Assembly (NCBI GenBank): GCA_016839515.1
Contig: JAEOUE010000222.1
Span: forward strand, 1-15,215
Length of the DNA stretch: 15,215 nt
From: Candidatus Hodarchaeum mangrovi
GTDB lineage: Archaea > Asgardarchaeota > Heimdallarchaeia > Hodarchaeales > Hodarchaeaceae
Direction of reading: 5' to 3'
Shown here one piece after another: positions 2,573 to 15,215 of the stretch. A program made the position numbers and the translations under genes. Within the stretch, counting starts at the first letter, position 1, and every line of letters starts with the position of its first letter. Under the pieces are notes generated by a model. That model saw only the letters and a program-made list of their open reading frames with translations. It made no database searches and was not told the DNA's origin.

Positions 2573-3475
2573 ATGAAGATTTCACTAGTTGGACTTAGTG
2601 GTTGTGGCAAAACATCAATATATTTGACTACTTTAGGCGGTATGACACCTAATGAGACCCGAGATTTAGGGCCTACTGTTATGCATGACGTTAAAAGTCA
2701 CAATTATTTGGGTTTGGAAATAAGCCTTTGGGATTTTGGTGGACAGGAAGAATATCGGCAATCCTATTTCGAAAGGCCTCAGCTTCTAACTAATACTACT
2801 GCTCTTATTTTTGTACTCGATTTACATCAACCTGAACAGTTTGATGAAGCAAATAGATATTTTACTAATGTTTATAAGGTTATCCAAGAAGGGGGTGGTG
2901 CTCCTACTATTTATGTCTTCTACCATAAGTATGATACTGAGGATTATTTTGAAGCAAAGCTTAAGGAAAGCCTTGTAAAAGCTAAAGCTCTTCCTTTCAT
3001 AAAAGAGTATACACCCCAAGCTTATATTACCTCTATTTATAGACAAGATGAGTTAAGCGATGTATTTCGGCAAATCTTAATTGCTGACTTTAAAGAGCTT
3101 CAAGATAGTGTGCAAAAGGCCCAAGAGAATCTAGCAAAACTCAATTCCAAGATAATTGTTAGTGATGTTAATGGTAATGTAATTACTCACAATATCAAAG
3201 GTTTTGCAACTGGTATTCAGCTTCGGGAAGATCTTCGCGATTATATTTTAGCTTGTAATGTAATACGAGAAAATTTCTTAACTACTGATTCTGCAAATTT
3301 CTCAGCCGTATCTGAGGTTAAACGACTTGATCTTCATGTCTTTAACTATGTTTTATCTGTAATGATAATGCTTGAAAAAGGTGCTAAATTAGATGATCCT
3401 AATGATATCAAATCCCTCTTAAAAGAAATGGAAATCTTCGCGAATGTTATTTTAGAGGCCAGTAAAGAAGATTAA
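2573..3475 (+). CDS. Small Ras-superfamily GTPase, Rag/Gtr-like (Arf-related), with C-terminal roadblock-like domain
   Basis: G1 GLSGCGKTS, G2 GPTV, G3 WDFGGQ, G4 HKYD (His in G4, as in Rag/Gtr HKxD), G5 TSI. The ~120-aa C-terminal alpha/beta extension contains KIIVSDVNGNVITHN, resembling the roadblock first hairpin. GAGGG lies upstream of the ATG. Confidence 0.85.
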   Translation: MKISLVGLSGCGKTSIYLTTLGGMTPNETRDLGPTVMHDVKSHNYLGLEISLWDFGGQEEYRQSYFERPQLLTNTTALIFVLDLHQPEQFDEANRYFTNVYKVIQEGGGAPTIYVFYHKYDTEDYFEAKLKESLVKAKALPFIKEYTPQAYITSIYRQDELSDVFRQILIADFKELQDSVQKAQENLAKLNSKIIVSDVNGNVITHNIKGFATGIQLREDLRDYILACNVIRENFLTTDSANFSAVSEVKRLDLHVFNYVLSVMIMLEKGAKLDDPNDIKSLLKEMEIFANVILEASKED

Positions 3476-3865
3476 TGCTTAGGGGTAATATTTCTTAATA
3501 AATTTAACAACGACACAGATTTTTCATTCATCTCTCCTTCTCTTTAGTTAGTTAGGAATCAATGGCATAAATTTTACTTTCTCTTCATGCTGAGAAAATT
3601 CAATATCTGGGGTTTTGGTTGGGTACTTACAGAAAGAATTAAGGAAAAAGAGAATTTATGAGGTTATTAGTCATAAAAGATGCAAAATCGGAGAATTAGA
3701 TCAAAGAAATCTAAGATAAATGATTTGAAAAACTCTACTTCTGTCCCTTAGTAACATTAATTTTACTGATTTTAAAAATAATAAATGATTTAATATTATT
3801 TTTGGTCGATTGAGAATCAGGTTACTATATTCAGTAATTAACTAGTGTTTTTTCGCTTTTATTCA

Positions 3866-3880
3866 GAATAAGTTTTTATA
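3866..3880 (+). promoter_or_regulatory. Candidate archaeal BRE-TATA promoter of the redox operon
   Basis: Purine-rich AGAATAAG is followed directly by TTTTTATA, about 135 nt upstream of the operon start. The AT-rich background makes this weak. Confidence 0.3.
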
Positions 3881-4002
3881 CTCCTAATATAAAAATTGTT
3901 AATGTTGTATCTTAACGTGGAACGAGCCAAGATCAAAGACCATTTCAGAAAATCACAAATTAGATACATTTTAATTGTAATAAGCTAGAAATCATTACTT
4001 TT

Positions 4003-4007
4003 GGAGG
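4003..4007 (+). promoter_or_regulatory. Shine-Dalgarno sequence of the NuoE/HydC-like gene
   Basis: GGAGG lies 9 nt upstream of the TTG start at 4017. Confidence 0.6.
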
Positions 4008-4016
4008 CTTAATCGG

Positions 4017-4508
4017 TTGGCAGTGGACACCTACGAAGAAAAAGATACTATTATTCATGAGATATTAGGTTCTAAAAGTAAGAATCAAGCCAATTTGATA
4101 CCTATTCTGCAAGCAGTACAAAAAGAGTTTGGATATCTTTCCAAAGAGAATTTGATTCATATTAGTGAACATCTTGAAATGTCTGCAAATGAAGTTTATG
4201 GTGTTGCTTCATTCTACCAGCAGTTCAAATTTATAAAACCTGGAAAACATATCATTACTGTGTGCTTAGGGACTGCCTGTTTTGTTAAAGGGGGAAAAAT
4301 CCTCGCAGAAACTGTGAAAACAAAATTAAATCTTGAGCCAGGTGGAACTACAGAAGATGGGTTATTTACATTTGAAAGAGTTGCCTGTCTTGGATGTTGT
4401 GCCCTAGCTCCTGTTGTTCAGATAGATGGCGAAGTTCATGGGGAGATGAATCCAGCAAAATTACTCCGAATTATCAATCGAATTACTCAGAAAGAAAAGA
4501 GTAGATAA
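4017..4508 (+). CDS. nuoE: NuoE/HydC(BfuC)-like [2Fe-2S] subunit of an NAD(H)-linked flavoprotein complex
   Basis: N-terminal helical domain (LIPILQAVQKEFGYL, VYGVASFYQQF) followed by thioredoxin-like [2Fe-2S] ligands CLGTAC...CLGCC. Confidence 0.92.
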   Translation: MAVDTYEEKDTIIHEILGSKSKNQANLIPILQAVQKEFGYLSKENLIHISEHLEMSANEVYGVASFYQQFKFIKPGKHIITVCLGTACFVKGGKILAETVKTKLNLEPGGTTEDGLFTFERVACLGCCALAPVVQIDGEVHGEMNPAKLLRIINRITQKEKSR

Positions 4509-4515
4509 GGTATGA

Positions 4516-6345
4516 ATGATGCTCCCTCATGATACTTCACAAAAAAAAATTTTGATTTGTCAAGGTACAGGTTGTTTGTCCTCTAAATCTGACGAGATAA
4601 AAGAAGAGTTTGAAGATCAGCTAAAAAACTTTAATCTACAGGATAGAGTAAAAGTTGATTTCACAGGATGCCATGGATTCTGTGCCCAAGGGCCAATAGT
4701 AATTATAGAACCTGAAGGCATTATGTATAGTAAAGTGAAAACCACCTATATAAATAGAATTGTAGAGTCTCATTTGAAAAATTCTGATCCAGTAATTGAA
4801 TATTTTTACAAAGATCCAAAAACAAATAAGCCAATAGCAAGATATCAAGATATTCCTTTCTATAACAGGCAAACACGAATGATTCTGGGTAGTTGTGGCC
4901 ATATCAATCCTGAGAATATTGATGATTATATTGAACGGGGAGGGTACTCAGGTTTGAAACGAGCATTAGAAATGTCTCCAGAGAAAATCATCCAAATAAT
5001 AAAAGATTCTGGATTACGGGGTCGTGGAGGAGCGGGTTTTTCTACAGGGCTAAAGTGGAGTTTTTGTCGGGATGCTCCGGGTAGTGAGAAATATATCATT
5101 TGTAATGCCGATGAAGGAGATCCAGGAGCGTTTATGGATCGTTCAATTCTCGAAGCAGATCCGCATAGTGTTTTGGAAGGAATGATCATTGGGGCATATG
5201 CTATTGGGGCACACCATGGTATTATTTATGTTCGTGCTGAATATCCTTTAGCTGTTAAGCGATTTAGGCATGCGGTGAATATCGCGAATGAGAAGGGATT
5301 TCTTGGTGAAAATATTCTGAATTCGAATTTTTCCTTGGATATTTCGATACATGAGGGTGCTGGTGCATTTGTGTGTGGAGAAGAAACAGCATTAATGGCA
5401 TCAATAGAAGGGCATCGCGGAAATCCCCGCCCAAGACCACCATTTCCTGCGACTTCTGGGTTATGGGGTAAACCTACCAATATTAACAATGTGAAAACAT
5501 GGGCCTCTGCAGCTTGGATTTTCAAAAACAGTTGGGAAGAATTTCATAAAGTTGGGGTTGAACATGCTTCTGGGACAGCTATATTTTCATTAACTGGTAA
5601 AGTAAATAATTTAGGTCTAATCGAAGTTCCTATGGGAACCCCTCTGAGAAAGATAGTATTTGAAATTGGTGGAGGCATTTTAAACAACAGAAATTTTAAA
5701 GCGGTTCAAACAGGAGGTCCTTCGGGAGGATGTTTACCTCCAAGTCATCTAGATTCTCCAGTTGATTACGAAACGATGGCAGCTTCAGGAAGTATTATGG
5801 GTTCTGGAGGAATGATTGTCCTTGATGATACTGATTGTATGGTCAAGCTTGCTCACTTTTTTTTAACCTTTACTCAAGCTGAATCATGTGGAAAATGTGT
5901 ACCATGTAGAATTGGAACAAGGGCAATGTTACTAGTTCTTGATCGGATTATTAAAGGAGAAGGTGAAGATAAAGATTTAATGTTGTTAGAGGAACTTGCT
6001 TATACCGTGAAAATGGGATCTTTATGCGCTCTTGGACAAACTGCTCCGAATCCTGTTTTAACTACCTTGAAGTATTTCCGAGAGGAATATCAAGCTCATA
6101 TCCTTGAAAAACGGTGTCCTGCCAGAGATTGTCAGGATCTAATTGATTATAGAATTGATGGTAATATTTGTAATGGATGTACACTTTGTGCGGGTAATTG
6201 TCCTGTTAAGGCAATCTCCGGTCAAAAAGGTAATGTACATACTATCGATCTGAATATTTGCGTAAAATGTGGAATTTGCTATTCTAGTTGTCCGAGAAAA
6301 GCAATATATAAGCAAGATAGGAATTCACAGTTGGTGGAAATATGA
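4516..6345 (+). CDS. nuoF: NuoF/HydB(BfuB)-like FMN/NADH-binding subunit, long electron-bifurcating type
   Basis: N-terminal [2Fe-2S] domain (CQGTGC...CHGFC); SGLRGRGGAGF; NADEGDPGAFMDR; GAGAFVCGEETAL; SLBB GGPSGG; [4Fe-4S] ESCGKCVPCR...C; HILEKRCPARDC; C-terminal 2x[4Fe-4S] ferredoxin (CNGCTLCAGNCP, CVKCGICYSSCP). Confidence 0.95.
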   Translation: MMLPHDTSQKKILICQGTGCLSSKSDEIKEEFEDQLKNFNLQDRVKVDFTGCHGFCAQGPIVIIEPEGIMYSKVKTTYINRIVESHLKNSDPVIEYFYKDPKTNKPIARYQDIPFYNRQTRMILGSCGHINPENIDDYIERGGYSGLKRALEMSPEKIIQIIKDSGLRGRGGAGFSTGLKWSFCRDAPGSEKYIICNADEGDPGAFMDRSILEADPHSVLEGMIIGAYAIGAHHGIIYVRAEYPLAVKRFRHAVNIANEKGFLGENILNSNFSLDISIHEGAGAFVCGEETALMASIEGHRGNPRPRPPFPATSGLWGKPTNINNVKTWASAAWIFKNSWEEFHKVGVEHASGTAIFSLTGKVNNLGLIEVPMGTPLRKIVFEIGGGILNNRNFKAVQTGGPSGGCLPPSHLDSPVDYETMAASGSIMGSGGMIVLDDTDCMVKLAHFFLTFTQAESCGKCVPCRIGTRAMLLVLDRIIKGEGEDKDLMLLEELAYTVKMGSLCALGQTAPNPVLTTLKYFREEYQAHILEKRCPARDCQDLIDYRIDGNICNGCTLCAGNCPVKAISGQKGNVHTIDLNICVKCGICYSSCPRKAIYKQDRNSQLVEI

Positions 6346-7952
6346 GCAAATGGATGAATATTAATGGAAAGCGTGTGGTTTTCGAAGAAGGGGAGACCGT
6401 ACTAGAAGTTGCCACTAAAGCAGGGATTTATATTCCAACTCTTTGTGCAAGACCAGATCTTCCATCAATAGGAGCTTGTCGATTGTGTATAATAGATATT
6501 GAAGGAGGTAGAGGATATCCAAATTCTTGTACATTACCCGCTAGAGAAGGGATGGTTGTTAGAACAGCTACCCCAGACCTTCAGGCTGTACGTCGTAACA
6601 TTCTTCAATTGATACTTGCAGAGCATCCAAGCTATTGCCTTGTTTGTAAAGAACAGGATGAATGTGCAAAACTACGACATGGAGAATACAAAGCAGGCCG
6701 AGTTATCGGGTGCTATACATGTAGTCAAAAGGAATTATGTGAAATTAGAAAGCTTGTAGAGTATCTACGGGTAAGAGAAATTCGTTTTCCCATACTTTAT
6801 AAGGATCTACCTTTAGAGCGAGACGATCCTTTTTTAGTTCGGGATTATAATCTTTGTATTTTATGTGCTCGATGTATTAGAGCTTGTCAAGATGTACTAG
6901 GGTATAGTGCTATTGCTCTTACAAAACGAGGTCATGATACTAAAGTAGGTACACTTTTGGAAGTCTCCCATTTAGAAAGTGGTTGCGTTTTTTGTGGTCA
7001 CTGTATTGATGTTTGTCCAACAGGAGCTTTGACCGCACGGGGTTCGTCTTGGTTTGGAACCCCTGACAAGTCCGTTTCCACGACCTGTGTTCTCTGTTCT
7101 CATGGCTGTCAAATGATTGCTGATGTAAGATGGAATACAGTCGTTAATGTTCATCCCCCATATGATATGTCAGCTCGACGGGAATATTGTGTAAAAGGTC
7201 GTTTTTGTATCCCAGCTCTTATGAATGGACGTAACCGTTTGAAATATCCTACTATTAAGCGAAAATTTATTCAAGAGGAGCATTTTCCAGTATCTTGGGA
7301 TGAGGCTTTTTCTTATAGTGCAGAAAAATTAAAGCAATACAAATTAGAAGAAATTGGGATCCTGGCTTCACCATTTTTGCTAGATGAGGCAATTTTTTTG
7401 CTTTCAAGATTCGCTAAGGAGGTTAGCGCTCATAATATCGTCTATGATGATGAAGGGCTTCAAGATTTAGCTTCTCGTAGAATAAAAGTTCTATTTGCTA
7501 CATTTAATGCAAAATCATTATCAGAAATTAAAAATATAGAGTTTTTAATCTTACAGGACGTTTATGAATCTTCCAACCTCAATGTTGCAGATGTTATTTT
7601 TCCAACTACAACTTTTACCGAAGAAAGTGGTACAAAAACAGGTGAAGATTTCATTAAAAATCAAATTAATAAAGTTGTTGATCCTCCTGGTGAAGCCTTG
7701 CCAAGTTGGAAAATTATAGGTGGCTTAGCACAAGGCATGGGATTAGCAGGTTTCTCTTTTAACTCTTTAATCGATTTACAAGATGAAATATCCAAATATG
7801 ATCCAATTAACATCCCACTTGTTCCTAAAGAATGTCTAGAGTATATGGGTACTCCTATATCAAATAAAGTGAGTGAATTGGACTTGTATCTAAATGCCAA
7901 GCGTGTGTTGAATGAAGCCAAAGGAGAAAGAACGCTAAATGTTAGAATTTAA
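6342..7952 (+). CDS. NuoG/HydA(BfuA)-like multi-Fe-S subunit with truncated, non-catalytic molybdopterin-oxidoreductase-like domain
   Basis: [2Fe-2S] (IPTLC...GACRLC...C); HxxxCxxCx5C; 2x[4Fe-4S] (CILCARCIRAC, CVFCGHCIDVCP); FdhF-type [4Fe-4S] CVLCSHGC...CVKGRF; remnants VSWDEA, ADVIFP..TFTEESGT and PPGEALPSW. No H-cluster motifs and no Mo-ligand segment. ATGA overlap with the upstream gene. Confidence 0.88.
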   Translation: MSKWMNINGKRVVFEEGETVLEVATKAGIYIPTLCARPDLPSIGACRLCIIDIEGGRGYPNSCTLPAREGMVVRTATPDLQAVRRNILQLILAEHPSYCLVCKEQDECAKLRHGEYKAGRVIGCYTCSQKELCEIRKLVEYLRVREIRFPILYKDLPLERDDPFLVRDYNLCILCARCIRACQDVLGYSAIALTKRGHDTKVGTLLEVSHLESGCVFCGHCIDVCPTGALTARGSSWFGTPDKSVSTTCVLCSHGCQMIADVRWNTVVNVHPPYDMSARREYCVKGRFCIPALMNGRNRLKYPTIKRKFIQEEHFPVSWDEAFSYSAEKLKQYKLEEIGILASPFLLDEAIFLLSRFAKEVSAHNIVYDDEGLQDLASRRIKVLFATFNAKSLSEIKNIEFLILQDVYESSNLNVADVIFPTTTFTEESGTKTGEDFIKNQINKVVDPPGEALPSWKIIGGLAQGMGLAGFSFNSLIDLQDEISKYDPINIPLVPKECLEYMGTPISNKVSELDLYLNAKRVLNEAKGERTLNVRI

Positions 7953-8829
7953 GATTGTAGAAAAGGAAGAATATGTACCTAATATTCATAAATTTGTGGT
8001 TTCCGTTCCCAAAATTGCACAAAAGACCCAACCAGGACAATTTATTCTTGTCATGGCTGATGAAAAGTCTGAAAGAATTCCTTTGACGTTAGCTGATTGG
8101 GATCCCATTTCAGGTACAATAACTTTCTTCGTTCAAGAATTAGGATTATCTACAACTAAAATGGCATATATGGAGGTACAGGATTCATTTTATTCAATTG
8201 TAGGTCCTTTAGGAAAACCTGCATACTTGGCAAAATTTGGTACTGTTGTTACGTCAGGGGGATGTTTTGGATTAGGTGGAATTTATTCAATTACTAAAGG
8301 GTTGAAAGAGCTTGATAATCAAATTATATCAATTTTAGAAGCAAAAAATGAAAGCCTTCTTTATTTTGAAGACGAGTTCCAAGAAATTAGTGATGAGGTT
8401 ATTTTTGTTACAGGTGATGGATCGAAAGGTACCAAGGGGCACATTTATGACGTCTTGGAAGACATTATTTCTACTCAAAAAAGAGAAATAGATCATATTA
8501 AGGTTATAGGCTGTAATGTAATGATGAGTAAGGTGGCGAAATTAACAAAAGAGCTTGGGAACATTCCTACCTATGCAACAGTATCAAGTATAATGGTTGA
8601 TGGTACTGGCATGTGTGGAGCTTGTAGACTTACTTATGATGGAAAAACAAAATTTGCATGTGTAGATGGACCTGAATTTGATGCACACAAGATAGATTGG
8701 GATGAACTAATCGGTGTACGAAATACAGCCTACATTCGTGAAGAATCGCTAAGTTTACAAAACTTTTCACCCCAATGTAAATCTTTAGCGAAATTTTTGG
8801 AAAAAAATATTGAGAAGGGATCAGTTTGA
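7939..8829 (+). CDS. nfnA: NfnA/SudB-type small subunit (FAD, [2Fe-2S]) of NADH-dependent ferredoxin:NADP+ oxidoreductase; NAD-site variant
   Basis: QPGQFI, ERIPLTLAD, VGPLG and MVDGTGMCGACR...FACVDGPEFDAH (Asp/Cys3 [2Fe-2S] signature of NfnA). Overlaps both neighbouring genes. Confidence 0.9.
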   Translation: MLEFKIVEKEEYVPNIHKFVVSVPKIAQKTQPGQFILVMADEKSERIPLTLADWDPISGTITFFVQELGLSTTKMAYMEVQDSFYSIVGPLGKPAYLAKFGTVVTSGGCFGLGGIYSITKGLKELDNQIISILEAKNESLLYFEDEFQEISDEVIFVTGDGSKGTKGHIYDVLEDIISTQKREIDHIKVIGCNVMMSKVAKLTKELGNIPTYATVSSIMVDGTGMCGACRLTYDGKTKFACVDGPEFDAHKIDWDELIGVRNTAYIREESLSLQNFSPQCKSLAKFLEKNIEKGSV

Positions 8830-10559
8830 AGGCGAAGGAACGAATGGATATTCAACGGACTGAGATGCCATCTCAACCAGCTTCAGTTCGGGCAAAGAAT
8901 TTCAGGGAGGTCCCATATGGATATACTGAAGAAATGGCTTTAGCTGAGGCCAGTCGTTGTTTAAGCTGCAAAAAACCAAAATGTGAAGAAGGTTGTCCAG
9001 TATTTGTTCCAATACCTGAATTTATAAGTTTAATACAGGAAGGAAAGTTTCTAGAAGCAGCATGGAAGATTAAAGAGAAAAATGTCCTTCCAGCTATATG
9101 TGGTAGAGTTTGTCCTCAGGAAAATCAATGTGAGGGGATGTGTATCCGTGGAAAGAAGGAAAAGCCAGTTGCAATAGGAAATCTCGAACGATTTGTAGCT
9201 GATTACGAAAGATTAAGCGGTTTTGTGCCTAAACCTTTGATCGTAAAGAAGAATGGAAAAAAAATAGCCATAATCGGAAGTGGGCCATCAGGATTAACTG
9301 TTGCTGGTGATCTAATTAAACTTGGATATGAAGTCTCTGTATTTGAAGCTTTTCATCGTGGTGGTGGTGTTCTTGTTTATGGAATTCCTGAATTTCGACT
9401 ACCTAAATCTGTTGTGGAATATGAGATTCGCAATCTAAAAAATCAAGGTGTTCAATTTGTCTATAATAATGTAATTGGACGTATTAGAACCATTGATGAA
9501 TTATTCGCAAACGATAACTTTGATGCAATTTACATTGGGGTTGGGGCAGGATTACCAGTTTTTTTGAATATTCCTGGGGAAAATCTTAAAGGAGTTTATT
9601 CTTCAAACGAATATCTGACTCGCTCAAATTTAATGAAAGCATATCTTTATCCAGAATATAATACGCCCCTTGTCCGTGGGAAAAATGTTGTAGTTGTTGG
9701 TGGTGGGAATGTAGCAATGGATTCAGCTCGTACAGCCCTTCGTTTAGATGCTAAAAATGTATATATAGTATATCGACGATCTAGAGAACAAATGCCTGCC
9801 AGATTGGAAGAAATTCATCATGCTGAAGAGGAAGGAATCCAATTTATGTTATTATCAAACCCTGTTGAGATTTTCGGGGATGAACAGGGTCGTGTAAGCA
9901 AAATAAAGTGTCAAAGATACAAACTTGGAGAACCAGATAAATCGGGTCGGGCTCGTCCGATTCCAATCGAGGGAGAGTTTTTTGAGTTAGAGACTGACTT
10001 ATTAATAATTTCAATCGGGAATAAGGCAAACCCACTTATTACAATGACTACACCTGATTTAGAAGTTAATAAATGGGGAAATATTGTAGCAGATGACTTT
10101 GGCCGCACTAGTAAACCTTTTGTTTATGCAGGTGGAGATATAGTCACAGGTGCAGCAACTGTCATATCAGCTATGGGTGCAGGTAGACGTGCTGCAATAG
10201 CAATCCATGAAGATCTATTCCCAGAAGAGAAAGAAGAACCTGAACTATTAATTGTCCCAATTGAAGCTATAAAAATTGAAGAAGCTTCAATTTATCCAAA
10301 TTCTACAGTAGTAAACATTTCTTTGAAAAATAATTCTAATAAGGAACTAGATAAGGTAAAAATTTCGGTTTCACATGTTCAGGAATTGTTTGAGCAGGCC
10401 TTATTAGATATTACAATTTTACGCTGGCTTCCCAATGAAATACAAAAATTAGAATGTCCTAGGATTCATGAAAATGAAAAGGATTACCTTCTGTCAGTAA
10501 AGGATATAAGTGGAATTCTATTATCTAAAATTATTAATGCTGAAAAAATTATGAAGTAA
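8826..10559 (+). CDS. nfnB: NfnB/SudA (GltD-like) large bifurcating subunit with an extra ~110-aa C-terminal extension
   Basis: EASRCLSCKKPKCEEGCP, CGRVCPQENQCEGMC, GNLERF, IIGSGPSGL (FAD), YGIPEFRLPK, GGGNVAMD and YRR (NADPH), YAGGDIVTGAATVISAMGAG. The family core ends near 10220. TTG start overlaps the nfnA stop (TTGA). Confidence 0.93.
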   Translation: MKAKERMDIQRTEMPSQPASVRAKNFREVPYGYTEEMALAEASRCLSCKKPKCEEGCPVFVPIPEFISLIQEGKFLEAAWKIKEKNVLPAICGRVCPQENQCEGMCIRGKKEKPVAIGNLERFVADYERLSGFVPKPLIVKKNGKKIAIIGSGPSGLTVAGDLIKLGYEVSVFEAFHRGGGVLVYGIPEFRLPKSVVEYEIRNLKNQGVQFVYNNVIGRIRTIDELFANDNFDAIYIGVGAGLPVFLNIPGENLKGVYSSNEYLTRSNLMKAYLYPEYNTPLVRGKNVVVVGGGNVAMDSARTALRLDAKNVYIVYRRSREQMPARLEEIHHAEEEGIQFMLLSNPVEIFGDEQGRVSKIKCQRYKLGEPDKSGRARPIPIEGEFFELETDLLIISIGNKANPLITMTTPDLEVNKWGNIVADDFGRTSKPFVYAGGDIVTGAATVISAMGAGRRAAIAIHEDLFPEEKEEPELLIVPIEAIKIEEASIYPNSTVVNISLKNNSNKELDKVKISVSHVQELFEQALLDITILRWLPNEIQKLECPRIHENEKDYLLSVKDISGILLSKIINAEKIMK

Positions 10560-10596
10560 TTTACCTCTGTGATAATTCAGGAAATTTACTAAGTGA

Positions 10597-11001
10597 TTAT
10601 TCCAAATTTAATGAATTAAAAGCAGCAATAATATCATACGAAGAAATAATCCCAACAAGTTTATTACTCTCTGGATTTCGTACAGGGAGCCGTTTTATCT
10701 TATGCTTTAACATAAGTAAAAATGCTGCTTTAATATTTTCTTCAGAAGAAATGGTAATAAGATTTTTAGTTGCCACATCTCTCGCTTTGATTTCACAAGG
10801 ATTACTGCATTCTATTACTACTCTTGATACTATATCCCGAAGAGTAATGATACCAATATTTAGATCATCAAGACTTTCACATACTAGGATTGAACCAATT
10901 ACATTTTCCATCATTAATCTAGAAACAGTAACAATGGTCTCTTCTGGACTTACAAATATGATATTTCGTACCATTAAATCTCTAACTTTAACAACATTCA
11001 C
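10597..11001 (-). CDS. Stand-alone CBS-pair (Bateman module) protein, putative adenylate sensor
   Basis: VRDLMVRN...IGSILV...GIITLRD and ARDVATKN...IKRLPV...GIISSYD give two CBS motifs, each with G-h-h-T/S-x-x-D. GTG start is 11 nt downstream of the upstream gene's stop. Confidence 0.92.
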   Translation of the reverse strand: MNVVKVRDLMVRNIIFVSPEETIVTVSRLMMENVIGSILVCESLDDLNIGIITLRDIVSRVVIECSNPCEIKARDVATKNLITISSEENIKAAFLLMLKHKIKRLPVRNPESNKLVGIISSYDIIAAFNSLNLE

Positions 11002-11012
11002 TAGAGCTCAAC

Positions 11013-11996
11013 TTATCCTATGATTCGCTTTAATTTGATTGTTTCTTCCTTATCATCAATTTTTAGGAAGTAAATATAGCTTTTCGTGAGATTAGCTTTA
11101 AAGTTTATTTCCTTTACTTCATCTGGTTTCCAAGTTGTAATTTGCGTTTTATGAATATCTTTACCAAAAAATCCTTCAGATTGCATGATTTTTACAGAGA
11201 TATCAACTAATTCAATATTTCCAGAGTTTAATAGTTCGAGCTTGATCGTGTCATTGATTATCATTCCAACGATTCGAATACTCTTAATTTTTAAGTCTTT
11301 TTTCTCTTTCTTCCCTTTTTCTTCTTTTATATCCTGTACTGGGACACTAAATCTGAGTATATTAGGTCGTGAGAGTCTTTTTTCTAAAAGTTGGGGGGTT
11401 GGGGTTCTAATATCACTTACAGCTGTTTGGAGTTTAGAAAGAGGTACTCTCGGGATTAATGACTGGCAAATATTATTTAATTCATCAATCACACTCTTAA
11501 CACTCGATTCAGAAATTTCTTTTTCAACAGCGGTATCAGAAAATTCGAGTTTTTTTTCCACAAGCATACACATCTTAGCGTCCAGATTTACCTCCAAATT
11601 AGTTTTTAATTCCTGAAGAATCTCATGAGCGATAAATGACACTGATGCAGGGGCTTTAACAATCAAAACAAATCGCTCATATTGCCATTTCTTAGAATCC
11701 ATACCTAAACGACGCTTTTTTCTTTTAGATTTACAAAAAAATAGAGTAGCAGAATAGATCTTATTTTGGATCTCTAGATCAATATGTGTAAGTTTTTCTG
11801 AATCTAGAAATCGATCTTGATGCCACCAAATTGAATGAACCGATAGAATCCTTTTTTCAGCTTCGTTTTGCATTAAATTACTTGGATATGAAAATAGAGG
11901 GATATGTCCTTTTAATTCATCAAAAAAATAGATAAAGACGCCGTAATGTTTTTCATCAGGAGAATTCTCCTTAGAACTGTTACCCAGATTCGACAA
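11013..11996 (-). CDS. Hypothetical protein: N-terminal longin/uDENN-like domain, linker, C-terminal Ig/CARDB-like domain
   Basis: 327-aa ORF with TTG start and AAGGA upstream. GVFIYFFDELKGHIPLFSYP resembles the uDENN/NPRL2-type start (h-h-h-x-F-D-x3-G-P...Y-P). Paralogous to 12166-13095. The fold call is inference. Confidence 0.75.
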   Translation of the reverse strand: MSNLGNSSKENSPDEKHYGVFIYFFDELKGHIPLFSYPSNLMQNEAEKRILSVHSIWWHQDRFLDSEKLTHIDLEIQNKIYSATLFFCKSKRKKRRLGMDSKKWQYERFVLIVKAPASVSFIAHEILQELKTNLEVNLDAKMCMLVEKKLEFSDTAVEKEISESSVKSVIDELNNICQSLIPRVPLSKLQTAVSDIRTPTPQLLEKRLSRPNILRFSVPVQDIKEEKGKKEKKDLKIKSIRIVGMIINDTIKLELLNSGNIELVDISVKIMQSEGFFGKDIHKTQITTWKPDEVKEINFKANLTKSYIYFLKIDDKEETIKLKRIIG

Positions 11997-12165
11997 ACTT
12001 CGACTAGTCCTTATCCATTAATTCTAATGTCCCTAATTATCACTTACTCAGGGGGAGTTGTGCAGATATACTTGGGAAGTAGATCTCTTTATTTTTTTCG
12101 TTTCGAGATTTTAAAAAACTTATTTTTCCATTAGAACTTTTTTTGTGTTCTATAAATTATTTTTT

Positions 12166-13095
12166 TTATAATGGATCAATTTTTAATGATTTAATTGCAA
12201 TGGTTGTTTTTCGACTACTTACTTTGATCAAATAATTTTGAATTTCGTCGGATTGAGTAAAATCAAGGATTATATCTTCCTTTTGGGGCCAAAGATCTAG
12301 TTTTTGTTCCCAGACAGTTTCACTAAAAAACTCTGAGCGTTTAGAAACATGAATAAGAACATCTTTCAGGTCTATATTTTTTTCATTAAAAAGAATCACA
12401 AGTATATGGCCAGGATCATCATCTGTAGAAAAAGTACGCATAGATATTTTTTGTTTATAAAGTGGAGTTGAATATTTTATTATATCAGAACTTTTTTCTT
12501 CAATTATCTCTTCTGGAAGAGTTGTAGACGTTTTTTTATTACTAGATTGTGATAAATTGAATATGAAAGTAAGCCAAGCTTCCTCGAACTGTCTATTAAG
12601 TCGGGCTATTTTTAAAGCATTCTTCAAAAAAAATTGTTTTTTAAGTGGATTTGAGGTGTATTTCTCTCGTTTATGAAGTAAATCGATATTTACACTTACT
12701 ATTTCTTCAATTTTCTTCTTTAAGCTCAATAAAAATGTGTTTTCGATCTGTTGAGTCTTGGATAGCTTAATTATAATAGCATAGATTCGTTGATTTAGAT
12801 TTTTATAATCTGATTGTAAGTTTTCATTTAATAAAACTGCAGCATAGATATAATTGGTTATTTTTAAATCGACTCGAATAGGAATATCGTCGATCTTCCA
12901 AATAGAATGCGTTTTTAAAATATTTTTCTCATTTTGGTCATCTTTCAGGTGAGGGGGTATACTATAAAGAAGTAAAAGTCCATCAATATTATCAAGAGAG
13001 CAGAGAAAAAAGCTTGGGGGTTTTAATGGTGTTCTAGATAATATGGAATCGTCAAAATCTGCCACTTCTCTATCAAAAAAAGGATCTCTCTTCAT
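12166..13095 (-). CDS. Hypothetical protein, paralogue of 11013-11996 (longin/uDENN-like plus Ig/CARDB-like domain)
   Basis: 309-aa ORF. It shares D-x3-G-x5-S-x-P-x2-L-x5-EKxILxxHSIW...DLxIxNxIYxAxL and the C-terminal motif with the neighbouring ORF. Confidence 0.75.
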   Translation of the reverse strand: MKRDPFFDREVADFDDSILSRTPLKPPSFFLCSLDNIDGLLLLYSIPPHLKDDQNEKNILKTHSIWKIDDIPIRVDLKITNYIYAAVLLNENLQSDYKNLNQRIYAIIIKLSKTQQIENTFLLSLKKKIEEIVSVNIDLLHKREKYTSNPLKKQFFLKNALKIARLNRQFEEAWLTFIFNLSQSSNKKTSTTLPEEIIEEKSSDIIKYSTPLYKQKISMRTFSTDDDPGHILVILFNEKNIDLKDVLIHVSKRSEFFSETVWEQKLDLWPQKEDIILDFTQSDEIQNYLIKVSSRKTTIAIKSLKIDPL

Positions 13096-13479
13096 TCTTC
13101 TTCATAGCCTATTAATTTATTAATGAACATTAGCTTATTCAAAGTTTATTAAATACAGATTCGATAATAGATATTATACTTCTTGTTTTTTCTTGATGGA
13201 AATGGACTTATTATATTAAATATAGTTTTCTGTGAATTTTAATGTAAAAATCTTAATTTTTAATCATTTATTTTCTTATTGTTTACAATTTTTTGGGAGA
13301 CTTAGTTTGTAAGGAATAAATAAATTCTTAAATTCTTGAATAAATCCAGAATCAAAGATAAAAATCGTTAGAAGTGGCTTTATATCTAAATTGAATCAAC
13401 TAATTATTTTCTAAAAAGAACTCAGATAAACAAATAATTTTTCTTTGAATATGTATAGACCTTATTGGAGAAGAATCAT

Positions 13480-15215
13480 TTGAGCTCGGATGAAATATTC
13501 GATCTTATAATTGTAGGGGGTGGACCTGCTGGATTATCATGTGCAATTCGTGCTGCTGAAATGGGGTTATATGTAATTGTACTAGAGGCCCGTTCTGGCG
13601 CAGCTACAGCTGGAACCATGCATGTGGATGGATATCCAGGATTCTATAGTATAACTCGTCAAGAACTTTTAGATAAAATAGCAAAACAAGCCAAATATCA
13701 GGCTAAAATCAAATATTCTCAGAGAGTAAGTAAATTAGAACTTAAAGATCCTATTAAACGTGTTCATACTCGTATTACCCGAGGTGAATTTTTTACAGAA
13801 GAACTGAAATATCAAGGAAGGACAGTTCTTATTGCTACAGGACTTTATCCAAGTGCTCTTGGCGTTGCAGGTGAAAAAAAGTTTATAGATAAAGGGATTT
13901 ACTACGCTATCCCTCCTGGTGATTTTTATGAAAAAACTGTTGTTATTATTGGTCATACTTCGTGGGCAGTAAGGAATGCACTTCATTTCGATGCTATGGG
14001 TGCATATGTATATCTCATTACTAGCCGAGACTCTCTAGATGCGCATCCTGCCCTTTTACGTCGATTAAATGAAAGTTTTGTTACTATTAGATATTCTGTT
14101 GAAACACAATATTTTGAGGGATCAAACCAATTAAAGAAAATATTCTTTACAGATAAAGAAGGAAAAACACATTCAATTTCTACAAATTACGTTATTGTTT
14201 TAAGAAGTGTAAATAGAAATCGAGATCTATTTCTTGACGCTGGATTAAACACAACACCTCAAGGATTACTTATTATTGGGTATGATGGTAATTCCCAAGT
14301 AACTAATATTCCTGGGGTTTTTGCAGCTGGTAGTGCTACAAGAGGTGATTCTATTGTTGGAGTTGATGCGGCTGAAGGGCAACAAGCTGCTATGGAAATT
14401 TCTAAATATTTAACTGATATGGGAAAAGACTCCACAGAGGTCATTGAAACCAAAAAAGCAATTGAACTCGAAAAACGATTTTTAGAAGGTAGGAGTGAGA
14501 TTATTGAAAAAGAAATGCTATCTCCTGAGATAGTTAAGTGGATTGTAAAGGCACCTCTTATTGCTAAGAAAGCAGAGCCAGGACAATTCGTTATCCTTCG
14601 CGTTACAGGGCAAGGAGAACGTATTCCTCTAACAATTGCTGATTTTGATAGAACAACAGGGACCATAACTCTGATATTTCAAATTGTAGGGAAAAGTACG
14701 AAAGAGATGGCTTTACTGAAGAAAGGAGATCATATTCTGAATCTTTTAGGACCTTTAGGTAAACCAGTGGAAATAGATAAGTGGGGAACAGTGGCTGTAT
14801 TGGGTGGCGGATGTGGGGTTGCCCCTGTATTACCTAAAACCAAGGCATTAAAAGATTTAGGTAATTATATTATCAGCATAATCTCTGCTCGGTCAAAAAA
14901 TTTGCTAATTTGTCAAGCTGAAATGGAGGGACCAAGTGATGAGCTCTATATTGCGACTGATGATGGAACTTTAGGTCATCATGGATTTGGAATAGAAGTT
15001 TTAAAGAAATTAATTGAAGAAGGAAGAAAAATTGATCATGTAGTTGCAGTAGGGCCTATTCCCATGATGAGAGCAATTGTTAATCTAGCCAAAGAACATT
15101 CAATACCTACAACAGTAAGTTTAGCTCCTCTTATGGTTGATGGTACTGGTATGTGTGGATCATGTCGAGTTACGGTTGCAGGAGAGGTTAAATTCGCGTG
15201 TGTCGATGGGCCAAA
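13480..15215 (+). CDS. Fusion of a thioredoxin-reductase-like FAD domain (no CxxC) with an NfnA/SudB-type domain; 3' end outside the window
   Basis: Manual translation from TTG 13480 (GGAG at 13467-13470; in-frame TAG at 13456) has no stop up to the edge: MSSDEIFDLIIVGGGPAGLSCAIRAA...VDGYPGF...VLIATG...GEKKFIDKGIYYAIPPGD...TNIPGVFAAGS...AAEGQQAAMEISKYL, then a linker, then EPGQFVIL...ERIPLTIAD...LGPLGKP...GGGCGVAP...VGPIPMM...MVDGTGMCGSCRV...FACVDGP. Confidence 0.9.
   Translation, partial: MSSDEIFDLIIVGGGPAGLSCAIRAAEMGLYVIVLEARSGAATAGTMHVDGYPGFYSITRQELLDKIAKQAKYQAKIKYSQRVSKLELKDPIKRVHTRITRGEFFTEELKYQGRTVLIATGLYPSALGVAGEKKFIDKGIYYAIPPGDFYEKTVVIIGHTSWAVRNALHFDAMGAYVYLITSRDSLDAHPALLRRLNESFVTIRYSVETQYFEGSNQLKKIFFTDKEGKTHSISTNYVIVLRSVNRNRDLFLDAGLNTTPQGLLIIGYDGNSQVTNIPGVFAAGSATRGDSIVGVDAAEGQQAAMEISKYLTDMGKDSTEVIETKKAIELEKRFLEGRSEIIEKEMLSPEIVKWIVKAPLIAKKAEPGQFVILRVTGQGERIPLTIADFDRTTGTITLIFQIVGKSTKEMALLKKGDHILNLLGPLGKPVEIDKWGTVAVLGGGCGVAPVLPKTKALKDLGNYIISIISARSKNLLICQAEMEGPSDELYIATDDGTLGHHGFGIEVLKKLIEEGRKIDHVVAVGPIPMMRAIVNLAKEHSIPTTVSLAPLMVDGTGMCGSCRVTVAGEVKFACVDGP

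What the first reader, a model, noticed from the sequence alone, without database searches (positions are those of the whole stretch)
10221..12447. One unannotated beta-sandwich domain ends three neighbouring proteins: the bifurcating enzyme NfnB and both longin-like proteins
Seen in sequence: after the normal NfnB end (~10220) and an acidic/Pro linker (PEEKEEPE) comes a ~95-aa domain (10269-10559). It aligns without gaps over 39 residues with the C-termini of ORFs 11013-11996 (nt 11016-11279) and 12166-13095 (nt 12169-12447): LKNNSNKELDKVKISVSHVQELFEQALLDITILRWLPNE / LLNSGNIELVDISVKIMQSEGFFGKDIHKTQITTWKPDE / LFNEKNIDLKDVLIHVSKRSEFFSETVWEQKLDLWPQKE. The motif is L-x-N-x2-N-x-[ED]-L-x2-[VI]-x-[IV]-x-[VI]-x6-F-x11-W-x3-E, followed later by Y-[LF]-[LI]-x-[VI]. 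Established: the NfnB/SudA proteins I know end right after the FAD domain. Inference: the alternating pattern fits an Ig/CARDB-like sandwich that could act as a shared docking or oligomerisation tag bringing the redox enzyme and the longin proteins into one assembly. The genes lie on opposite strands, so this is domain shuffling and not simple tandem duplication.
Basis: partly seen in the sequence, partly recalled or inferred. Interest (0 to 1): 0.88.

Follow-up and report, generated by a model that had tools for sequence, protein, structure and literature searches.

The report
Shared Ig-like tag in Rag-GTPase cluster
A small, previously unnamed beta-sandwich domain really is shared by a redox enzyme and two neighbouring longin proteins in this Asgard archaeon, and across related archaea it marks the proteins of a conserved gene cluster built around a Rag-like GTPase, hinting at an archaeal forerunner of eukaryotic nutrient sensing.

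Summary
NfnB (8826-10559) carries a roughly 100-aa C-terminal domain. It is homologous to the C-termini of two longin-fold paralogs, here called LonA (11013-11996) and LonB (12166-13095). Profile-profile E is 8e-15, and these are the only three significant carriers in this genome. The predicted fold is a 7-strand Ig-like sandwich with no Pfam or PDB sequence match.

In the same genus the tail sits on NfnB in 10 genomes and on an FrhB/FdhB-like flavoprotein in 12. It always lies at the same locus, between a Rag/Gtr1-like GTPase and CBS-LonA-LonB. In six other Asgard families, FrhB-like+tail, Rag, LonA, CBS and an arrestin-like protein with the same domain form one cluster.

LonA has a conserved Arg-rich loop that LonB lacks. 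Its longin domain matches NPRL2 and FLCN about as well as it matches other longins.

My best reading (confidence 0.45) is a shared address or assembly module that ties a redox enzyme to a Rag-GTPase/longin signalling set. Binding is not shown. Two genomes keep a constrained tail without Rag or LonA/LonB, which argues against simple docking onto the longin proteins.

The parts
2573..3475 (+). Rag/Gtr1-like small GTPase, 300 aa. It is a conserved neighbour of the tail-bearing enzyme in all cluster types.
   Evidence: Pfam Gtr1_RagA E 4e-22, 79 bits against a cutoff of 22. Orthologs of 67-69% identity occupy the same position in 7 other loci of the genus, and 41-48% orthologs lie directly beside FrhB-like+tail in 7 loci of other families.
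4017..8829 (+). NuoE-like, NuoF-like, NuoG/molybdopterin-like and NfnA-like genes. With NfnB they form one co-directional redox operon.
   Evidence: Pfam 2Fe-2S_thioredx, Complex1_51K, Fer2_4/Molybdopterin and DHODB_Fe-S_bind; NCBIfam PRK06222 for NfnA. The same operon is present in the 3 other Type I loci examined.
8826..10220 (+). NfnB/GltD-like catalytic core (Fer4_20 plus FAD/NAD(P) domains), residues 1 to about 465.
   Evidence: TIGR01316 at 583 bits, above its cutoff of 471.75, matching residues 18-463. Pfam Fer4_20 and Pyr_redox_2. PDB 4ylf_B and 5jca_L align to residues 10-465 and 10-467.
10221..10253 (+). Acidic, Pro-containing linker (PEEKEEPE...) between the NfnB core and the tail.
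   Evidence: Read from the translation. Conserved as a charged linker in 5 NfnB homologs.
10254..10556 (+). C-terminal Ig-like beta-sandwich domain on NfnB (the 'tail'); the stop codon is at 10557-10559.
   Evidence: HMM hit E 7.4e-14 genome-wide; hhalign E 8e-15; AF2 model pLDDT 86.4 with 7 strands; VIA best match DUF3244 4g5a_B, Z 9.3, rmsd 2.4, 81 aligned; dN/dS 0.07-0.18.
10597..11001 (-). Stand-alone CBS-pair protein, 134 aa. It is a conserved neighbour of LonA and is fused to LonA in other lineages.
   Evidence: Pfam CBS E 2.7e-23, two stretches. Same position in 7 other loci of the genus. LonA-sandwich-CBS fusions P0099 (641 aa) and L037 (631 aa).
11013..11996 (-). LonA: longin-fold N-domain (about 11421-11942), disordered linker, and C-terminal sandwich (11016-11294).
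   Evidence: AF2 model pLDDT 73, strands and helices in longin order, 7-strand C-domain. VIA: residues 16-192 match 8fw5_B from a GATOR1 complex (Z 9.7), Sec22 (9.5) and 6nzd_H from an FLCN complex (9.3); the C-domain matches 4g5a_B (Z 9.4). No Pfam family.
11685..11729 (-). Conserved Arg/Lys-rich loop after longin strand 4 of LonA (residues 90-104; R92, K94, R96, G98, M99, W104). Candidate arginine finger.
   Evidence: At least 90% conserved in 56 sequences. The pattern S-x-R-x-K-x-R-[SA]-G-[ML] is kept in LonA orthologs of 6 other families and is absent from LonB.
12166..13095 (-). LonB: paralog of LonA with the same architecture (sandwich at 12169-12462) but without the Arg-rich loop.
   Evidence: BLASTP against LonA over the full length, E 3e-10, 23% identity. 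HMM hit 1.5e-19. Alignment of 13 LonB sequences. Loop deletion seen.

Best explanation
The roughly 95-100-aa segment is a real, selected Ig-like beta-sandwich domain of a new sequence family that is restricted to Asgard archaea. I read it as a common address or assembly module of a gene set centred on a Rag-like GTPase.

Every protein that carries it is encoded in or beside the same cluster:
- a redox flavoenzyme: an FrhB/FdhB-like protein ancestrally, replaced by NfnB in this sub-lineage;
- LonA, a longin protein with a conserved Arg-rich loop;
- LonB, its loop-less paralog, in this genus;
- an arrestin-like protein in other families.

The proposed working is as follows. LonA/LonB form a FLCN-FNIP- or NPRL2-NPRL3-like longin pair that regulates the neighbouring Rag-like GTPase. 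The CBS pair supplies adenine-nucleotide sensing. The sandwich domains bring the redox enzyme to the same complex or site, so that redox or energy state and the GTPase switch are coupled.

Shown here: homology of the domain, its fold class, purifying selection, its restricted set of architectures, the conserved cluster, and the enzyme swap with the tail retained.

Inferred, not shown: any physical binding, GAP activity of LonA, and which way information flows between enzyme and GTPase.
For: 1. Homology and restriction. hhalign E 8.2e-15. Only three carriers in this genome, all within 2.9 kb. Only 84 of 1.84e9 representatives match at E<=0.001: 37 have the longin N-domain, 6 are FrhB-like, 8 are large multi-stretch proteins (4 of the 4 tested carry CARDB/NPCBM_assoc-type repeats), and 33 are short or unclassified.

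2. Same locus, different enzyme. In 22 of 24 genomes of the order (all 22 belong to one genus) the tail sits on NfnB (10 genomes) or on an FrhB-like protein (12, one of them cut by a contig end). Eight loci examined show Rag - [enzyme+tail] - CBS - LonA - LonB in the same order. The two enzymes are mutually exclusive: this genome has no FrhB-like core, and the FrhB-type genomes have no close NfnB1 ortholog.

3. The NfnB and FrhB tails are sister clades (95/93), separate from the LonA and LonB clades.

4. Outside the genus, 7 of 10 loci fetched, from 6 families, have FrhB-like+tail directly followed by Rag and by a 377-404-aa protein ending in the same domain, with LonA nearby. A stand-alone CBS lies beside LonA in 5 of them. 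All genes are co-directional in 6 of the 7; L038 lies on both strands.

5. A LonA-sandwich-CBS fusion exists.

6. Rag, LonA and LonB are absent together from G013 and G014.

7. The LonA N-domain is a longin fold. All 11 longin-part rows among the 50 rows that pdb_via lists (from 997 Foldseek-ranked chains aligned) are chains of GATOR1, SEAC or FLCN-FNIP entries, Z 8.2-9.5. The Arg-rich loop is conserved in LonA and missing in LonB.

8. The tail is under purifying selection.
Against: - No direct evidence of binding exists.
- G013 (90% complete) and G014 (94% complete) keep FrhB-like+tail but have no ortholog of this Rag and no LonA/LonB. Their tails still show dN/dS 0.17 against 0.07 for the core. 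The tail therefore has a use that does not need the longin proteins.
- In the largest family (f20, 130 of 135 genomes positive) the two loci examined hold only LonA-like proteins, with no tail-bearing enzyme and no Rag nearby.
- The longin match to NPRL2/FLCN is tied, within 1 Z unit, with Sec22, CPLANE, BLOC-3, VAMP7 and AP-3 sigma in the search that does not depend on Foldseek.
- LonA has G-H-x-P rather than the published GP motif.
- No sequence-level link to any Pfam or PDB longin was found.
Confidence: 0.45

Rival explanations
1. The sandwich has a self-contained role in each carrier and does not join the carriers into one assembly. Possible roles are homo-oligomerisation, stabilisation, or binding of a small ligand or of a partner outside the cluster. 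Under this reading, sharing among neighbours reflects local duplication and recombination.
For: FrhB-like+tail persists, with tail dN/dS 0.17, in G013 and G014, which lack the Rag ortholog and LonA/LonB. LonA and LonB share the domain simply because they are whole-gene paralogs. Ig-like sandwiches are generic modules: Z 7-9 to hundreds of unrelated chains.
Against: The domain family is extremely narrow (84 of 1.84e9 representatives), yet it recurs on three or four different protein types of one conserved cluster in at least 7 families. When the enzyme was exchanged, the tail was retained at the same locus. This pattern is hard to explain without a function common to the cluster.
Confidence: 0.3
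2. The domain is a membrane- or lipid-targeting module, working like a C2 domain or PDE6-delta. It would bring all carriers to the same membrane site rather than to each other.
For: Structural neighbours include PDE6-delta (Z 8.4-8.5) and a C2A domain (Z 7.3). An invariant aromatic pair (F46 and its neighbouring F/L) lies in a loop of lower confidence. From recall: the eukaryotic Rag, FLCN and GATOR machinery acts on a membrane. This reading would also explain why the tail is kept without LonA/LonB.
Against: These Z values are no higher than those for many unrelated Ig-like domains. No lipid-binding pocket or basic patch was examined. No transmembrane or lipid-anchor partner lies in the cluster.
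Confidence: 0.12
3. The similarity is chance, or the NfnB extension is a read-through or assembly artefact.
For: Pairwise BLASTP is marginal (E 0.008) or negative.
Against: Profile E-values of 8e-15 and 7e-14. The fused frame is intact in 10 species-level genomes. dN/dS is 0.07-0.18. Both models give a confident 7-strand fold.
Confidence: 0.01

Closest known systems
Longin-domain GAP pairs for Rag/Arf GTPases: FLCN-FNIP2, NPRL2-NPRL3 (GATOR1/SEACIT), SMCR8-C9orf72
   Same: - Two paralogous longin proteins are encoded side by side, and only one (LonA) keeps a conserved Arg-rich loop.
- A Rag/Gtr1-like GTPase lies in the same cluster.
- All 11 longin-part rows among the 50 rows that pdb_via lists are chains of GATOR1, SEAC or FLCN-FNIP entries, Z 8.2-9.5, 130-142 residues aligned.
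- PMC12290439 (passages read) already proposes that some Heimdallarchaeial longins are FLCN/SMCR8-like GAP longins. The preprint 10.1101/2020.10.19.343400 (passages read) reports NPRL2-like longins in Asgard.
   Different: - The C-terminal partner domain is a roughly 95-aa Ig-like sandwich, not a DENN domain or the NPRL2 C-terminal domain.
- There is no sequence-level match to Pfam or PDB.
- The loop before strand 2 reads G-H-x-P, not GP.
- The structural match is tied with non-GAP longins.
- The same sandwich also sits on redox enzymes; the five literature searches run and the passages read found no such link described for the eukaryotic complexes.
NfnB, the large subunit of NADH-dependent ferredoxin:NADP+ oxidoreductase (T. 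maritima 4ylf_B, P. furiosus NfnI 5jca_L)
   Same: The core, residues 10-465, aligns end to end with the solved NfnB chains (E 1e-155 and 3e-148). It is above the TIGR01316 cutoff. An NfnA-like gene lies directly upstream.
   Different: It carries a roughly 110-aa linker plus sandwich that the solved NfnB chains lack. It is the last gene of a NuoE/F/G-like plus NfnA operon. The two other NfnB paralogs in this genome (462 and 467 aa) have no tail.
DUF3244 / CARDB-type Ig-like domains (E-set beta-sandwiches)
   Same: Seven-strand sandwich. The best VIA matches are 4g5a (Z 9.3-9.4) and 3sd2_A (Z 8.7); the CARDB domain 3idu_B scores Z 8.0. The domain profile weakly hits CARDB/NPCBM_assoc/DUF11 repeat proteins, E 1e-10 to 2e-6.
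   Different: No Pfam model reaches E<=1 on the window's three carriers. The domain is cytoplasmic, present in a single copy, fused to longin, flavoenzyme or arrestin-like proteins, and restricted to Asgard genomes.

Membership tests
NfnB / GltD-like NADPH-dependent oxidoreductase (TIGR01316) | Whole-protein score above the curated cutoff, with end-to-end coverage of the model | tested here: met
   583.1 bits against a cutoff of 471.75; residues 18-463 match model positions 1-448 of 449.
NfnB / GltD-like NADPH-dependent oxidoreductase (TIGR01316) | Partner NfnA-like (DHOD-B electron-transfer-like) subunit encoded adjacently | tested here: met
   7939-8829 matches PRK06222 at 332.8 bits against a cutoff of 220, and Pfam DHODB_Fe-S_bind.
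NfnB / GltD-like NADPH-dependent oxidoreductase (TIGR01316) | Electron-bifurcating Nfn activity | not testable with these tools
The operon context with NuoE/F/G-like genes differs from the classical two-gene nfnAB arrangement.
Longin domain fold | beta-beta-alpha-beta-beta-beta-alpha(-alpha) sandwich | tested here: met
   AF2 secondary-structure elements E19-26, E30-37, H39-52, E72-76, E79-89, E106-116, H117-137. VIA Z 8.9-9.7 to NPRL2, Sec22, FLCN, VAMP7 and AP-3 sigma longins, 119-142 residues aligned.
Longin-GAP family (FLCN, NPRL2, SMCR8) | Catalytic arginine finger in the longin domain of one subunit, absent from the partner | tested here: inconclusive
   R92 and R96 lie in a conserved loop after strand 4 of LonA and are absent from LonB. 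A residue-level superposition on NPRL2 R78 or FLCN R164 could not be made. The position of those arginines after strand 4 is recalled, not tested.
Longin-GAP family (FLCN, NPRL2, SMCR8) | GP motif at the start of longin strand 2 (PMC12290439) | tested here: inconclusive
   LonA has an invariant G30 followed by H31-x-P33 (G-H-[IV]-P), so the Gly is kept but the Pro is displaced by two residues. LonB has only the G.
Longin-GAP family (FLCN, NPRL2, SMCR8) | Specific structural or sequence relationship, closer than to other longins | tested here: inconclusive
   All 11 longin-part rows among the 50 rows listed by pdb_via are chains of GATOR1, SEAC or FLCN-FNIP entries. In the independent wide search, Sec22, CPLANE, BLOC-3, VAMP7 and AP-3 sigma are within 1 Z unit. 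No HMM hit to Pfam or PDB.
Longin-GAP family (FLCN, NPRL2, SMCR8) | GAP activity toward a Rag or Arf GTPase | not testable with these tools
   Only genomic linkage to a Gtr1_RagA-type GTPase is available.
Rag/Gtr1 GTPase | Gtr1_RagA Pfam match above the gathering score | tested here: met
   PF04670, E 4e-22, 79.2 bits against a cutoff of 22, residues 2-194.
CARDB / DUF3244-type Ig-like domain families | Match to the family HMM at or above its threshold | tested here: not met
   No Pfam family reaches E<=1 on the tail or on the LonA/LonB C-domains. Among 56 family members, the only match in this region is Por_Secre_tail in 5, with best E 0.025. There is fold-level likeness only.

The most novel reading that the evidence does not exclude
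This cluster may be a prokaryotic forerunner of the eukaryotic Rag nutrient-sensing axis. Under this reading:
- An Arg-finger longin (LonA) and its non-catalytic paralog (LonB) form a FLCN-FNIP/GATOR1-like GAP for the neighbouring Rag-like GTPase.
- A CBS pair reads adenine nucleotides.
- A flavin/FeS redox enzyme (FrhB-like ancestrally, NfnAB here) is physically recruited through a dedicated Ig-like domain carried by every component.

The cell's redox and energy state would then directly set the GTPase switch, or the switch would gate electron flow. The exchange of one enzyme for another with the tail kept would show that the coupling, and not the particular enzyme, is what selection preserves.
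Probability: 0.2. Interest if true: 0.9.

Novelty: new variant of a known kind. Interest (0 to 1): 0.72.

Why it matters
Asgard archaea encode many Rag-, Arf- and Rab-like GTPases and many longin and roadblock proteins. It has been hard to say which regulator serves which GTPase. Tran et al. 2024 (PMC10933270, passages read) state that in MK-D1 the GTPase genes generally do not lie in operons with longin genes.

This finding offers three things:
- A cluster conserved across at least 7 families, which pairs one Rag-like GTPase with a specific longin protein that carries a candidate arginine finger.
- A new, easily recognised domain that labels the cluster's members.
- An unexpected tie to redox enzymes, and a CBS sensor in the same cluster.

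It turns "do Asgard longins act as Rag GAPs, and what do they sense?" into a bench experiment with named genes. It also shows a domain being kept while its enzyme carrier is exchanged, which is a clean natural experiment on modular coupling.

Tried and rejected
- **Complex prediction.** Chains were LonA (alignment A1), LonB (A3) and the NfnB tail (A2, the partner). The verdict was "no answer": ipSAE 0.01 and 0.00, controls not run. This is neither for nor against binding.
- **Pairwise BLASTP** of the tail against LonB found nothing; profiles were needed.
- **Sequence searches for a known family.** Pfam on the three proteins and on all 56 family members, NCBIfam, and PDB sequences with the LonA/LonB profile and the domain profile gave no meaningful hit.
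- **Remnant of an FrhB-like gene in the window.** tblastn found only Fer4 motif matches inside NuoF/NuoG.
- **Earlier findings of this scan.** By place and by sequence, nothing.
- **Literature.** Five searches found no description of this domain, of an NfnB or FrhB fusion to it, or of the cluster. Supplementary tables of the Asgard ESP papers (asCOG lists; Data S1 of PMC12290439) could not be seen and may already list LonA-type proteins among the "NPRL2-like" or "FLCN/SMCR8-type" longins.
- **ESM Atlas** for the 378-aa neighbour gave only leads to arrestin-like clusters, below the 0.9 mark.
- **The search for homologous proteins with the domain profile, lengths 'longer'** returned 67 proteins, but only 8000 candidates were scored and no FrhB-type protein appeared. 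It is not a census.
- **Rejected: the two longin proteins acquired the domain independently.** They are homologous over their full length.
- **Rejected: the tail is a species-specific read-through**.

Full report
**1. What is in the window**

ORF listing and family scans give the following map.

| Coordinates | Strand | Product |
|---|---|---|
| 3-758 | - | class I (Trp/Tyr-type, PF00579) aminoacyl-tRNA synthetase fragment |
| 937-2382 | - | MFS transporter |
| 2573-3475 | + | Rag/Gtr1-like GTPase (PF04670, E 4e-22) |
| 4017-10559 | + | co-directional operon: NuoE-, NuoF-, NuoG/molybdopterin-like, NfnA-like and NfnB-like genes |
| 10597-11001 | - | CBS-pair protein |
| 11013-11996 | - | unannotated protein, here LonA |
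| 12166-13095 | - | unannotated protein, here LonB |
| 13465-15213 | + | thioredoxin-reductase-like/NfnA-like fusion, running off the window |

G+C content is about 30-40%. Public names for close relatives point to Hodarchaeales, within the Asgard archaea.

**2.

- The quoted strings are in the translations.
- The NfnB core is complete at about residue 465. TIGR01316 matches 18-463 above its cutoff. The solved NfnB chains 4ylf_B (468 aa) and 5jca_L (474 aa) align to 10-465 and 10-467. Residues from about 468 to 577 are therefore an addition.
- Pairwise BLASTP is weak: E 0.008 to LonA and nothing to LonB.
- Profiles settle it. Five NfnB tails against 51 LonA/LonB C-domains give hhalign probability 98.4, E 8.2e-15, over 87 columns.
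- An HMM built from LonA/LonB C-domains alone finds exactly three significant ORFs among the 10,120 six-frame ORFs of this genome: LonA, LonB, and NfnB at 7.4e-14. The next hit is at 0.046. The reverse search also works, at 1.2e-4 and 0.011.
- A 27-sequence alignment of four carrier classes is almost gapless, with invariant N26, F46, W58 and Y78.

**3. Fold**

The AF2 model of LonA (56-row alignment, pLDDT 73) has three parts:
- an N-terminal longin-type alpha/beta domain, residues 19 to about 194;
- a disordered linker;
- a 7-strand sandwich, residues 240-326.

The NfnB tail modelled with the domain alignment gives pLDDT 86.4 and pTM 0.78, again with 7 strands. That alignment contains LonA/LonB rows, so this model is not independent of the homology call.

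Both sandwiches have the same best VIA-align match, DUF3244 4g5a: Z 9.4 for LonA and Z 9.3 (rmsd 2.4, 81 residues aligned) for the tail. A long list of Ig-like domains at Z 7-9 follows, including CARDB 3idu_B at Z 8.0. These Z values are in the range the tool calls "middling", so only the fold class is claimed.

**4. The two longin proteins**

- LonA and LonB are paralogs over their full length (E 3e-10).
- The family has 55 relatives at 90% clustering, none with a Pfam domain. All those with a name are called "hypothetical". LonA and LonB often have adjacent locus tags.
- The N-domain is a longin fold. In the search that does not depend on Foldseek, the top rows are 8fw5_B from a GATOR1 complex (Z 9.7), Sec22 (9.5), 6nzd_H from an FLCN complex (9.3), CPLANE (9.2), 8adl_S from the SEA complex (9.2), BLOC-3 (9.0) and 6ulg_N from an FLCN-FNIP2 complex (8.9). 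All are tied within one unit.
- Among the 50 rows that pdb_via lists (997 of Foldseek's 1000 highest-ranked chains were aligned), all 11 rows covering the longin part are chains of GATOR1, SEAC or FLCN-FNIP entries, Z 8.2-9.5.
- LonA carries a conserved loop after strand 4, S-x-R-x-K-x-R-[SA]-G-[ML]. R92, K94, R96, G98, M99 and W104 are at least 90% conserved in 56 sequences. The loop is kept in LonA orthologs of six other families. It is deleted in LonB.
- This asymmetry mirrors FLCN/FNIP, NPRL2/NPRL3 and SMCR8/C9orf72, where one longin supplies the arginine finger (PMC8213707 and PMC12290439, passages read). That those arginines also follow strand 4 is my recollection, not a test.
- The published GP motif appears in LonA as G-H-x-P.

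**5. The wider picture: same locus, exchangeable enzyme**

Searching the order with the tail finds it in 22 of 24 genomes. All 22 belong to one genus, including the window's own genome. The two genomes of the other family have none.
- In 10 genomes it ends a 581-588-aa NfnB.
- In 12 it ends a 490-509-aa protein; one of these is cut by a contig end. This protein is an FrhB/FdhB-family FeS flavoprotein (PF04432, PF04422, Fer4).

Eight loci of the genus show one of two layouts:

| Type | Loci | Gene order |
|---|---|---|
| I | window, L016, L017, L018 | MFS - Rag> NuoE>F>G>NfnA>NfnB+tail> <CBS <LonA <LonB, then TrxR-NfnA> NfnB2> |
| II | L013, L014, L015, L019 | MFS - Rag> <FrhB-like+tail <CBS <LonA <LonB, then TrxR-NfnA> NfnB2> |

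- The window's genome has no FrhB-like core and no remnant of one in the window.
- In four of the five FrhB-type genomes searched, the best NfnB-core hit is only the tail-less paralog at 51-55% identity; the fifth (G014) has no hit at the 1e-30 threshold.
- The two other NfnB paralogs of this genome (462 and 467 aa) lack the tail.
- In a maximum-likelihood tree of the domain, the four classes are each monophyletic, and the NfnB and FrhB tails are sisters (95/93). One enzyme-tail lineage therefore passed from one enzyme to the other. Since other families have only the FrhB form (next section), NfnB is most likely the derived carrier.

**6. Beyond the genus**

The domain profile finds 179 of 400 genomes of the phylum, with sharp family limits:
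- Present: 21/21, 3/3, 5/5, 6/6, 3/3, 2/2, 2/2, 1/1, 130/135 and 4/4 in ten families.
- Absent: 0/31, 0/19, 0/14 and 0/12 in others.

Of 10 loci fetched from 8 families:
- Seven, from six families, hold one cluster. It is co-directional in six of them; in L038 the genes lie on both strands. The order is CBS - LonA - [a Peptidase_C25 protein in three of them] - FrhB-like+tail - Rag - a 377-404-aa protein that also ends in the sandwich.
- In L037, LonA is fused to CBS domains, as in P0099 (641 aa).
- One locus (L043) has only FrhB-like+tail within the 10 kb fetched.
- Two loci of the large family f20 have only LonA-like proteins.

The 377-404-aa protein is probably arrestin-like. The evidence is a weak Arrestin_C hit (E 0.0027, below threshold) and language-model neighbours at 0.83-0.86. 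Both are leads only.

Against 1.84 billion representatives, the profile finds 84 proteins at E<=0.001:
- 37 have the longin N-domain.
- 6 are FrhB-like.
- 8 are large multi-stretch proteins of 681-1846 aa. The four I scanned carry CARDB/NPCBM_assoc/DUF11-type Ig repeats.
- 33 are short or unclassified, many of them evident fragments.

NfnB carriers are hidden there by the 50% clustering.

**7. Selection, and a result against simple docking**

- NfnB tails have dN/dS 0.07-0.18 for pairs with dS below 1.
- FrhB tails have 0.017-0.11 in genomes that hold the full cluster.
- G013 (90% complete) and G014 (94% complete) have FrhB-like+tail but no ortholog of this Rag; the best hits are 29-34% paralogs. 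They also have no LonA/LonB; the full-length profile hits only the FrhB tail.
- This joint absence fits Rag, LonA and LonB being one functional set.
- The tail of these two species is still constrained, at 0.169 against 0.067 for the core over 101 codons. The tail therefore cannot serve only to dock onto LonA/LonB.

**8. Interpretation**

The facts that need explaining are these:
- a very rare domain;
- always C-terminal and single-copy;
- found on three or four unrelated protein types that are encoded together around a Rag-like GTPase in at least 7 families;
- retained at the locus when the enzyme was exchanged;
- under purifying selection.

The simplest account is a common address or assembly module for the components of one pathway (confidence 0.45). 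Whether the domains bind each other, a common partner (Rag is the obvious candidate) or a membrane is open. One multimer job gave no verdict; it is listed under Tried and rejected only.

Calling the pathway Rag-GTPase signalling with a longin GAP-like pair, a CBS nucleotide sensor and a redox enzyme is an inference from family resemblance and gene order. The main rival is that each carrier uses the domain on its own (0.30). A membrane-targeting version of the address idea gets 0.12.

**9. Comparison with what is known, and novelty**

- NPRL2-like and FLCN-like longins in Asgard archaea are in print (10.1101/2020.10.19.343400, passages; PMC12290439, passages). Rag-like GTPases are too (PMC10933270, passages).
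- I found no description of this sandwich family, of its fusion to NfnB or FrhB-like enzymes, or of the Rag/LonA/CBS/FrhB cluster in five full-text searches.
- The supplementary lists of those papers could not be read and may include LonA-type proteins under other names.
- I rate the finding a new variant of a known kind: a longin/Rag regulatory set with a new shared domain and an unprecedented tie to redox enzymes.

Noticed in passing
window 13465-15213 (+), continuing off the window; L013:6288-9550 and equivalents: A thioredoxin-reductase-like domain (Pyr_redox_2, TRX_reduct E 1.5e-43) is fused to an NfnA-like domain (PRK06222). In relatives it is followed by a tail-less NfnB paralog. The pair flanks LonB in all 8 loci of the genus that hold the cluster. 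The TrxR-NfnA fusion itself looks unusual.
   Followed up: partly
L035:10059-12080, L036:9124-11655, L042:9430-12045 (all -): In three loci of two other Asgard families, a 673-871-aa Peptidase_C25 (gingipain-type) protein with CarboxypepD_reg lies inside the cluster between LonA and FrhB-like+tail. In two of the three it also has DUF4350/IFT52-GIFT-like domains.
   Followed up: no
L036:5415-6551(-), L039:4700-5914(-), L038:12420-13592(-) and 4 more: A 377-404-aa protein directly beside Rag ends in the same sandwich domain. Its N-terminal ~290 residues may be arrestin-like: Arrestin_C E 0.0027, below threshold, and atlas neighbours at 0.83-0.86. This is a fourth carrier class, absent from the window's genus.
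   Followed up: partly
L036:1779-5316, L037:1353-4896, L039:12464-16190, L042:1994-5586: A roughly 450-aa multi-[4Fe-4S] protein and a second, tail-less FrhB-like protein (474-567 aa) lie next to the cluster in four loci of three other families. This suggests a larger redox gene neighbourhood.
   Followed up: no
L015:3742-7548, L019:11775-15480, L020:1209-5050; own genome C98:1430-5201: A second set of two Rag-like paralogs (about 309 and 334-358 aa, 22-31% identical to the window's Rag) with intervening genes lies just beyond the MFS gene in FrhB-type genomes, and on another contig in this genome. It may encode a Rag heterodimer.
   Followed up: no
protein P0015 and P0157: A LonA/LonB pair on a 55-kb contig is labelled 'Bacteroides sp. 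SM23_62_1' in NCBI. All other named relatives are Asgard MAGs, so that contig is probably mis-binned.
   Followed up: no
window 3476-4016: A 541-bp AT-rich (28% G+C) non-coding gap lies between the Rag gene and the NuoE-like gene. This is where FrhB-type genomes have the convergent FrhB-like gene instead. No FrhB remnant was detected.
   Followed up: partly
window 6342-7952 (+): The NuoG-like protein (536 aa) has the N-terminal 2Fe-2S/4Fe-4S domains and only part of a molybdopterin-oxidoreductase domain (PF00384 stretch 395-463 against model positions 282-351). It may be a truncated, cofactor-less NuoG/Fdh-type subunit.
   Followed up: no
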